In this document: in pieces, positions 22,802 to 24,298 of the stretch
How the letters are laid out: each line of letters opens with the position of its first letter
Numbering within the stretch: position 1 is the stretch's first letter
Assembly: GCF_045037415.1 (NCBI RefSeq)
Contig: NZ_CP173438.1
DNA length: 64,000 nucleotides
Reading direction: 5' to 3' (one strand)
Source of the DNA: Escherichia coli
GTDB taxonomy: Bacteria; Pseudomonadota; Gammaproteobacteria; Enterobacterales; Enterobacteriaceae
Notes under the pieces: model-generated
What the model saw: only the letters and a program-made list of their open reading frames with translations
Database searches by the model: none
Told to the model about the DNA's origin: nothing
Made by a program: the position numbers and the translations under genes

Positions 22802-24298
22802 ATGGCTCACCCTCATTTATTAGCGGAAAGAATTTCCCGCCTGAGCAGTTCGTTGGAAAAGGGGCTTTATGAACGTAGCCACGCCATCCGCTTGTGTTTA
22901 TTAGCGGCATTAAGTGGTGAAAGTGTGTTCCTCCTTGGCCCACCAGGTATTGCCAAAAGTTTGATCGCCCGGCGCTTAAAATTCGCCTTTCAGAATGCCC
23001 GCGCGTTTGAATATCTGATGACCCGCTTCTCCACGCCGGAAGAAGTTTTTGGTCCCCTTTCTATTCAGGCGCTAAAAGATGAAGGGCGCTATGAACGTTT
23101 AACCAGCGGTTACCTGCCGGAAGCTGAAATCGTCTTTCTGGATGAGATCTGGAAAGCGGGTCCGGCAATTCTTAATACCTTGCTCACCGCCATTAACGAG
23201 CGCCAGTTCCGCAACGGCGCACTCGTAGAAAAAATCCCGATGCGTCTGCTGGTGGCGGCCTCCAACGAGCTGCCGGAAGCAGACAGCAGTCTGGAAGCGT
23301 TATATGACCGCATGCTGATTCGTCTGTGGTTAGATAAAGTGCAGGATAAAGCGAATTTCCGCTCCATGCTGACCAGTCAACAGGATGAAAATGACAATCC
23401 GGTTCCTGCCTCCTTGCAGATCACAGATGAAGAATATGAACGCTGGCAGAAAGAGATTGGTGAAATTACGCTGCCCGATCATGTATTTGAGCTGATTTTT
23501 ATGCTGCGCCAGCAACTGGATAAATTACCGGATGCGCCTTATGTCTCGGATCGTCGCTGGAAAAAAGCGATCCGCTTATTGCAGGCCAGCGCCTTTTTTA
23601 GCGGTCGCAGTGCTGTTGCCCCGGTTGATCTCATTTTGCTGAAAGATTGCCTGTGGTATGACGCGCAAAGCCTGAATTTGATACAACAACAAATTGATGT
23701 ATTGATGACCGGTCATGCCTGGCAACAGCAAGGGATGTTGACCCGCCTGGGCGCGATTGTGCAACGTCACCTGCAACTCCAGCAGCAACAAAGCGATAAA
23801 ACAGCCTTAACGGTAATTCGTCTGGGCGGCATTTTCAGCCGTCGTCAGCAGTATCAACTTCCTGTTAACGTTACTGCTTCCACTCTGACTCTGCTGCTGC
23901 AAAAACCGTTAAAATTGCATGATATGGAAGTGGTTCATATCTCCTTTGAGCGTAGCGCGCTGGAACAGTGGCTGAGTAAAGGTGGTGAGATTCGCGGCAA
24001 ACTGAACGGTATCGGCTTTGCCCAGAAACTGAATCTGGAAGTGGATAGCGCCCAACATCTTGTTGTACGCGATGTAAGTTTACAAGGCAGTACGCTGGCA
24101 CTTCCCGGTTCATCGGCTGAAGGTCTGCCAGGTGAAATAAAACAACAACTGGAAGAGCTTGAAAGCGACTGGCGCAAGCAACACGCTTTATTCAGCGAAC
24201 AGCAAAAATGTCTGTTTATCCCTGGCGACTGGTTAGGTCGCATTGAAGCCAGCCTACAGGATGTCGGCGCACAGATTCGCCAGGCACAACAATGCTAA
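22802..24298 (+). CDS. ravA: MoxR-family AAA+ ATPase RavA (498 aa)
   Basis: ORF 22778..24298; ATG at 22802 gives [53 protein letters not shown]... Confidence 0.92.

What the first reader, a model, noticed from the sequence alone, without database searches (positions are those of the whole stretch)
24292..24298. ravA-viaA translational coupling
The viaA start (ATG 24292) lies 7 nt inside the 3' end of ravA (stop 24296-24298), typical of a coupled operon pair. It encodes a MoxR-type AAA+ ATPase and its VWA-domain partner, both full length.
Basis: seen in the sequence. Interest (0 to 1): 0.12.

Follow-up and report, generated by a model that had tools for sequence, protein, structure and literature searches.

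The report
Known ravA-viaA overlapping gene junction
This is the well-known E. coli ravA-viaA two-gene operon, in which the second gene starts 7 bases before the first one ends; the start codon is correct and conserved, and the arrangement is ordinary.

Summary
The window is E. coli chromosome (oriC region). ravA (22802-24298, 498 aa) and viaA (24292-25743, 483 aa) overlap by 7 nt (ATGCTAA), exactly as RefSeq annotates them. Both proteins match their NCBIfam equivalog models end to end.

- In 81 Enterobacteriaceae species, an ATG touching the ravA stop is always present: 7-nt overlap in 50, ATGA in 18, TAATG in 13.
- No in-frame start lies upstream of it.
- The only plausible downstream start (Met-10) is Leu or Ile in 12 species.
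- Codons 3-9 evolve like coding sequence.
- The published NMR structure of the ViaA N-domain (PDB 7UGC) has its helical bundle beginning at M1.

Translational coupling itself is inferred, not shown. In its favour, the stop/start contact is kept while the junction sequence is remodelled. viaA has no Shine-Dalgarno signal above background. No conserved RNA structure and no internal promoter consensus were found. Reported protein levels are about 350 RavA to 90 ViaA per cell. Termination-reinitiation is the likeliest mechanism (about 0.6). De novo initiation, as published for bioBF, is not excluded. No searchable paper tested coupling for this pair.

Verdict: already known and ordinary, so low interest.

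The parts
22802..24298 (+). ravA coding sequence (498 aa + TAA): MoxR-family AAA+ ATPase RavA
   Evidence: ORF (the longest ORF starts at TTG 22778, but the real start is ATG 22802). Pfam bpMoxR/AAA_5/AAA_lid_8/LARA_dom/ATPase_RavA_C. NCBIfam NF010054 equivalog 1-498/498, 991 bits. PDB 6q7l/3nbx RavA 1-498. RefSeq CDS ravA.
24292..25743 (+). viaA coding sequence (483 aa + TAA): VWA-domain partner of RavA
   Evidence: ORF. Pfam VWA_CoxE/VWA_2 at residues 320-457. NCBIfam NF008230 equivalog 1-483 vs 1-487/487, 878 bits. RefSeq CDS viaA. PDB 7ugc 'Protein ViaA' residues 1-191. The MIDAS-type D327/S329/S331 residues are invariant in distant homologues.
24292..24298 (+). 7-nt stop/start overlap ATGCTAA (viaA ATG 24292-24294; ravA TAA 24296-24298)
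   Evidence: Read directly. Same geometry in 50 of 81 Enterobacteriaceae species, replaced by ATGA (18) or TAATG (13) in the rest.
24282..24284 (+). AGG inside the ravA Gln-Ala codons (CAG GCA), 7 nt before the viaA ATG: at most a very weak Shine-Dalgarno element
   Evidence: Anti-SD duplex energy is -2.5 kcal/mol, and 47% of 20-nt windows in ravA/viaA do as well or better. AGG sits at -10 or -13 in 80/81 species. The Gln codon is CAG in 78/78 cases versus 77% CAG elsewhere in ravA (not corrected for phylogeny).
24316..24321 (+). In-frame GTG (24316) and ATG (24319, Met-10): the only nearby alternative viaA starts, rejected
   Evidence: The Met-10 codon is CTG/ATT/ATC/ATA in 12 of 81 species. 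Codon 9 is GTG or ATG in only 24 of 81. Ten species have no ATG/GTG/TTG in codons 2-13. The NMR helical bundle begins at M1.
22596..22801 (+). ravA upstream region that carries the operon promoter (from the literature only)
   Evidence: Wong et al. [quoted passage not shown] The operon is sigma-S dependent aerobically and Fnr dependent anaerobically. I did not map the promoter here. The consensus sigma-70 scan found none on the + strand.

Best explanation
ravA and viaA form the known two-gene operon of E. coli. One mRNA is made from the promoter upstream of ravA, and viaA is translated from ATG 24292, which lies 4 nt before the ravA stop codon (7 nt shared). Most likely a ribosome that finishes RavA at TAA 24296-24298 re-initiates, without leaving the mRNA, at the AUG that is still within its footprint. 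This is termination-reinitiation, so ViaA synthesis is tied to RavA synthesis. The AUG has essentially no Shine-Dalgarno help, so re-initiation is inefficient and ViaA is made at a fraction of the RavA level. Shown here or in the literature: gene identities, full length, the start codon, the operon, and the unequal protein levels. Inferred: that viaA translation depends on ravA translation, and that the mechanism is re-initiation.
For: Identity and start. The region is 100% identical to annotated E. coli with the same overlap, and both proteins give end-to-end equivalog matches. An ATG in contact with the ravA stop is present in 81/81 species, and no in-frame start candidate lies upstream of it. 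Met-10 is lost in 12/81 species, and codons 3-9 vary mainly at third positions, as codons 10-40 do. Predicted N-termini of 15 distant ViaA homologues (29-64% identity) mostly align within about 2 residues of M1. The NMR structure 7UGC has a helical bundle spanning M1-Q168. Coupling. The junction has been rebuilt at least three ways (-7, -4, -1 nt) without ever separating stop and start, and the RavA C-terminal residue changes with it, so the ATG is kept for viaA rather than for RavA. Five of six distant lineages keep -4 to +9 nt spacing. The SD energy of -2.5 kcal/mol is at the background median, versus -5.3 for ravA. The distant orthologue with a 9-nt spacer has a strong SD (GGAG, -8.3). No + strand promoter consensus was found inside ravA. 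RavA is about 350 and ViaA about 90 molecules per cell. Published tests found 4 of 5 E. coli overlapping pairs coupled, the last 15 nt of the upstream gene sufficient for coupling, and -8..+10 nt spacing predictive.
Against: No experiment tests coupling for this pair. An overlap does not guarantee coupling: bioBF, also with a weak SD, initiates de novo. Removing the SD cut re-initiation by 60-90% or abolished it in 4 of 5 E. coli pairs, so an SD-poor junction could be a poor re-initiation site. Increasing overlap beyond -4 nt lowers coupling efficiency in synthetic systems. ViaA level is unchanged in markerless delta-ravA and raised in delta-ravA::cat, which shows that viaA can be translated without full-length ravA. 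This is not decisive, because I could not see how those alleles were built, and such scars often keep a short ORF ending at the native stop. The promoter scan covers only sigma-70 consensus, whereas the operon is sigma-S/Fnr driven.
Confidence: 0.6

Rival explanations
1. The overlap is only genome compaction. viaA is translated by ordinary de novo 30S initiation at ATG 24292 on an unstructured, SD-poor site, independently of ravA translation.
For: bioBF behaves this way despite an overlap and a weak SD. The junction RNA is no more structured than shuffled sequence (z = 0.03) and has no conserved structure, so the AUG is accessible. ViaA is still made in delta-ravA strains.
Against: With a background-level SD, de novo initiation should be weak. 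The strict retention of stop/start contact across 81 species and three geometries is not needed if the two are independent. A strong SD accompanies the 9-nt-spaced orthologue. Four of five tested E. coli overlaps are coupled.
Confidence: 0.3
2. Coupling works by RNA unfolding. A hairpin hides the viaA start, and ribosomes translating ravA melt it, letting new ribosomes bind.
For: This is one of the two general models of translational coupling. The single-sequence MFE fold pairs part of the region.
Against: The fold energy equals that of shuffled sequence (z = 0.03; 104 of 200 shuffles fold as well). The consensus structure of 30 orthologues scores only -2.0 kcal/mol, has no compensatory pairs, and has no pair over the start codon.
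Confidence: 0.05
3. The true viaA start is downstream (GTG 24316 or ATG 24319), so the genes do not overlap.
For: Both codons are in frame in E. coli, and their SD score (-3.1) is no worse than that of ATG 24292.
Against: Met-10 is replaced in 12/81 species, and 10 species have no alternative start in codons 2-13. Residues 2-9 are under protein-level selection. NCBIfam and distant homologues align from residue 1. The NMR helical bundle starts at M1.
Confidence: 0.03

Closest known systems
E. coli K-12 ravA-viaA (formerly yieN-yieM) operon
   Same: It is this locus. Gene order, lengths (498 and 483 aa), the 7-nt overlap and the neighbours kup and asnA are the same as in RefSeq E. coli annotation. 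The operon, its sigma-S/Fnr control, the RavA-ViaA interaction and the protein levels are published.
   Different: Only strain-level substitutions. RavA differs from the PDB (K-12) sequence at a few residues, such as H141L and D203A/A204S/V207I.
Experimentally tested E. coli overlapping gene pairs coupled by termination-reinitiation (hyfHI, astDB, ydbH/ynbE, menDH; Huber et al. 2019, 2023)
   Same: A co-directional pair with stop and start in contact, whose products interact physically. The spacing is within the -8..+10 nt range.
   Different: Those pairs have -4 or -1 nt overlaps and mostly rely on an SD within the upstream gene. Here the overlap is -7 nt and the SD is at background level. 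Coupling has not been tested for ravA-viaA.
bioB-bioF of E. coli
   Same: Overlapping pair with a very weak SD before the downstream gene.
   Different: bioF was shown to initiate de novo, without coupling. Whether viaA behaves this way is unknown.
Other MoxR AAA+ / VWA gene pairs (e.g. NorQ-NorD, CbbQ-CbbO)
   Same: A MoxR-class ATPase gene paired with a gene for a VWA-domain partner that works with it (titles and abstracts).
   Different: Different MoxR subfamilies and clients. RavA additionally has the LARA domain that binds lysine decarboxylase LdcI. I did not examine their junctions.

Membership tests
RavA (MoxR-family AAA+ ATPase, RavA subfamily) | MoxR-type AAA+ module with Walker A (GPPGIAKS) and an AAA lid | tested here: met
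   Pfam bpMoxR 5e-56, AAA_5 2.4e-27, AAA_lid_8 5e-22. GPPGIAKS is present in the translation.
RavA (MoxR-family AAA+ ATPase, RavA subfamily) | LARA domain and RavA C-terminal domain; full-length match to the equivalog model and to solved RavA | tested here: met
   LARA_dom 1e-39 and ATPase_RavA_C 1.8e-23. NF010054 1-498/498 at 991 bits against a cutoff of 681. PDB 6q7l/3nbx 1-498.
ViaA (VWA partner of RavA) | C-terminal VWA domain with a MIDAS-type DxSxS motif | tested here: met
   VWA_CoxE 2.2e-10 and VWA_2 1.5e-8 at residues 320-457. D327, S329 and S331 are invariant among 16 homologues.
ViaA (VWA partner of RavA) | Full-length match to the equivalog model, including the N-terminal helical domain starting at M1 | tested here: met
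   NF008230 1-483 vs 1-487/487 at 878 bits against a cutoff of 500. PDB 7ugc residues 1-191 match the query 1-191. The bundle spans M1-Q168.
ViaA (VWA partner of RavA) | Encoded immediately downstream of ravA on the same strand | tested here: met
   True in the window, in 80 Enterobacteriaceae species and in 6 of 6 distant loci examined.
Translationally coupled overlapping gene pair (termination-reinitiation) | Co-directional genes on one transcript | not testable with these tools
   Literature only: the operon is expressed from the ravA promoter. No + strand sigma-70 consensus was found inside ravA, which is weak negative evidence.
Translationally coupled overlapping gene pair (termination-reinitiation) | Stop-to-start spacing within about -8 to +10 nt | tested here: met
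   -7 nt here. -7, -4 or -1 nt in 81/81 species.
Translationally coupled overlapping gene pair (termination-reinitiation) | Translation of the downstream gene depends on ribosomes reaching the upstream stop codon | not testable with these tools
   This needs a premature-stop reporter experiment. No publication was found for this pair.
Translationally coupled overlapping gene pair (termination-reinitiation) | SD motif within the upstream gene that aids re-initiation (common, not strictly defining) | tested here: not met
   -2.5 kcal/mol, at the 47th percentile of background. Only a conserved AGG at -10/-13.

The most novel reading that the evidence does not exclude
The junction may be kept deliberately SD-poor and in stop/start contact so that ViaA can be made only by inefficient re-initiation. 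That would hard-wire a sub-stoichiometric ViaA:RavA ratio (about 1:4 measured; RavA is a hexamer and ViaA a dimer). Lineages that separated the two genes would then compensate with their own SD. The three interchangeable geometries (-7, -4, -1) would be neutral solutions to the same constraint.
Probability: 0.3. Interest if true: 0.2.

Novelty: already known. Interest (0 to 1): 0.07.

Why it matters
It matters little. The result confirms that the database start of viaA is right, which is useful for anyone building ravA or viaA deletions or tagged alleles. Any ravA deletion or C-terminal tag has to preserve the last 7 nt and, probably, translation into them. It also points out that translational coupling of this much-studied pair has apparently never been tested. 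RavA-ViaA dosage affects aminoglycoside sensitivity and persistence, so the way the ratio is set has modest practical interest.

Tried and rejected
(1) Downstream start at GTG 24316 or ATG 24319: rejected on orthologue, selection and structure evidence.
(2) Upstream in-frame start: none exists in any of 81 loci.
(3) The longest-ORF start of ravA at TTG 22778: rejected in favour of ATG 22802.
(4) An RNA hairpin occluding the viaA start: no signal in the single sequence or in the alignment. In one search, L075 was given in the wrong register by my mistake, which does not change the result.
(5) An internal promoter for viaA: no + strand sigma-70 consensus. The scan cannot see sigma-S or Fnr promoters, so this is weak evidence.
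(6) A frameshift-produced RavA-ViaA fusion: by eye there is no slippery heptamer in gcacaacaatgctaa. One 785-aa fused database entry from Salmonella (P0007) looks like an assembly or annotation artefact and was not pursued.
(7) Literature search for viaA plus 'translational coupling': zero papers. The old names yieN/yieM gave one irrelevant genome announcement.
(8) The search for homologous proteins listed only close relatives at >=76% identity. Distant relatives had to come from the representative search.
(9) The ViaA levels in delta-ravA strains cannot discriminate between coupling and independent initiation, because the allele design is not visible to me.

Full report
**What is there.** The bases at 24290-24299 read caATGcTAAc. 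An ATG sits at 24292-24294 and a TAA at 24296-24298. A + strand ORF ends at 24298, and another runs from 24292 to 25743.

**Where the window comes from.** The stretch 22600-25800 is 100% identical to several complete E. coli chromosomes and is present in 5422 of 5426 E. coli genomes. RefSeq annotates ravA and viaA there with the same 7-nt overlap, flanked by kup and asnA. The 90 nt around the junction are at least 95% identical in 5416 of 5426 genomes. The wider window is the E. coli oriC neighbourhood, running ilvG ... rrnC ... rbs ... kup, ravA, viaA, asnA, asnC, mioC, oriC, mnmG, rsmG, atp, glmUS, pst, bgl ... tnaAB.

**Gene identity and completeness.**
- The first protein, taken from ATG 22802, is 498 aa.
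  - It has the MoxR AAA+ module, AAA lid, LARA domain and RavA C-terminal domain.
  - It matches the NCBIfam RavA equivalog model 1-498/498 and solved RavA chains over 1-498.
  - The TTG at 22778 that the ORF listing reports is only the longest-ORF start.
- The second protein is 483 aa.
  - It has a C-terminal VWA domain and matches the ViaA equivalog model end to end.
  - It matches PDB 7ugc, 'Protein ViaA', over residues 1-191.

**Testing the viaA start.** I fetched the locus from 80 other Enterobacteriaceae species at 77-99% ViaA identity.
- In all 81 sequences, including the window, an ATG lies in contact with the ravA stop. The forms are ATGCTAA (27), ATGCTGA (22), ATGTTAA (1), ATGA (18) and TAATG (13). 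No locus has any in-frame ATG, GTG or TTG upstream of it.
- The only plausible alternative in E. coli is GTG 24316 or ATG 24319 (Val-9/Met-10). The Met-10 codon is Leu or Ile in 12 of 81 species. Ten species have no start-type codon in codons 2-13, and three have none in codons 2-25.
- Codons 3-9 vary mostly at third positions, the same pattern as codons 10-40, so residues 2-9 (LTLDTLNV) are under protein-level selection.
- The RavA C-terminal residue changes with the geometry, so the ATG is conserved for viaA and not as part of a RavA codon.
- Fifteen distant ViaA homologues (29-64% identity) have predicted N-termini that mostly align within about two residues of E. coli M1.
- The published NMR structure of the ViaA N-domain describes an eight-helix bundle spanning M1-Q168 (PMC10585395).

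The start at 24292 is as secure as sequence analysis can make it.

**Conservation of the junction at greater distance.** Six distant loci all keep ravA immediately upstream of viaA.

| Locus | Stop-to-start spacing |
|---|---|
| L082 | +3 nt |
| L083 | -4 nt |
| L084 | -1 nt |
| L085 | +9 nt |
| L086 | +3 nt |
| L087 | +113 nt |

The +9 locus has a strong SD (GGAG, -8.3 kcal/mol) and the +113 locus a moderate one (-4.7). Three of the four tight junctions have background-level SD scores; the -1 locus L084 is the exception, with the strongest SD of the six (GGAGG, -9.5).

**Mechanism.** The literature establishes these points.
- ravA and viaA form one operon driven from the ravA promoter. It is sigma-S dependent aerobically and Fnr dependent anaerobically.
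- The two proteins interact.
- Levels are about 350 RavA and 90 ViaA molecules per cell.

My own tests gave four results.
- The 20 nt before the viaA ATG pair with the anti-SD no better than random windows in these genes. The energy is -2.5 kcal/mol, at the 47th percentile, against -5.3 for ravA's own start.
- Only an AGG at -10 or -13 is conserved. It is supplied by a Gln codon that is CAG in 78 of 78 cases, against 77% CAG elsewhere. That comparison is not corrected for phylogeny.
- The junction RNA is no more stable than shuffled sequence (z = 0.03). Thirty orthologues share no structure over the start: the consensus scores -2.0 kcal/mol with no compensatory pairs.
- No + strand sigma-70 consensus lies inside ravA.

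Published experiments on native E. coli pairs give the background expectations.
- Four of five overlapping pairs were coupled by termination-reinitiation.
- The last 15 nt of the upstream gene suffice for coupling.
- Coupling decays steeply with distance.
- Spacings from -8 to +10 nt are predictive, and such pairs are enriched for subunits of complexes.

Taken together, the best reading is that ribosomes terminating RavA re-initiate on the adjacent AUG at modest efficiency. This fits ViaA being about a quarter as abundant as RavA. That step is inferred, not shown.

**What argues against it.**
- No paper in the searchable library tests coupling for viaA.
- bioBF, also overlapping and SD-poor, initiates de novo.
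- SD removal strongly lowers re-initiation in most tested E. coli pairs.
- Overlaps longer than 4 nt reduce coupling in synthetic constructs.
- ViaA levels are unchanged in markerless delta-ravA and raised in delta-ravA::cat. This shows that full-length ravA translation is not required. It is not decisive, because I could not see how those alleles were built, and such scars often keep a short ORF ending at the native stop.

I put termination-reinitiation coupling at about 0.6, independent de novo initiation at about 0.3, RNA-unfolding coupling at about 0.05 and a downstream start at about 0.03.

**Comparison with what is known, and novelty.** This is the known ravA-viaA operon itself, annotated identically in RefSeq, with structures for RavA and for the ViaA N-domain. 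The -7 nt spacing is less common than the enriched -4, -1 and -8 classes. It is in the same phase as -4 and -1, which sister genera use at this very junction. Nothing here departs from known biology. The only gap is that coupling has not been measured for this pair. Novelty is 'already known' and interest is low.

Noticed in passing
window 25741-25750: viaA (+) and asnA (-) are convergent, with only 4 nt (atta) between their stop codons (TAA 25741-25743; TTA 25748-25750). There is no room for an intergenic terminator, so transcripts must end inside, or run antisense into, the opposite gene. Wong et al. 2014 reported that asnA mRNA changes whenever ravA-viaA expression is altered, which could be read-through interference rather than RavA-ViaA function.
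   Followed up: partly
window 47236-48072 (+): bglG (antiterminator of the cryptic bgl operon) carries an internal stop at codon 230 (..DESLQ*AVKQ..). RefSeq flags it as a pseudogene in the identical strain.
   Followed up: yes
window ~27884-28261: The chromosomal replication origin oriC lies between mioC and mnmG. Three perfect DnaA boxes (TTATNCACA) sit at 27906, 27980 and 28086. The window holds 8 such boxes against 2.2 expected.
   Followed up: partly
window ~6855-12087 (-): A complete rRNA operon (16S, tRNA-Glu, 23S, 5S, tRNA-Asp, tRNA-Trp), i.e. rrnC, according to the annotation of the matching strain.
   Followed up: no
window ~14676-14710; ~44456; and mdtL/yidZ near ~60380-60405: Other gene overlaps in the window: mdtD and rbsR are convergent and overlap by 35 nt, pstC/pstA overlap by 1 nt (a stop/start junction like the one studied), and mdtL/yidZ are co-directional and overlap by 26 nt.
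   Followed up: no
P0007: A 785-aa Salmonella Infantis database protein carries both RavA and ViaA domains. It is probably a frameshift or assembly error at or near the overlapping junction that fuses the two ORFs.
   Followed up: no
L087:1888-2000: In one distant orthologue (34% ViaA identity), ravA and viaA are separated by 113 nt containing a long inverted repeat (caacttgaagat...atcttcaagttg). This could be an intercistronic stem-loop, and viaA there has its own moderate SD.
   Followed up: no
L037; P0075: Records labelled 'Chryseobacterium sp. 18061' and 'Vagococcus sp. WN89Y' carry an Enterobacteriaceae-type viaA at 82-83% identity to E. coli. This is most likely contamination or mislabelling of those assemblies.
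   Followed up: no
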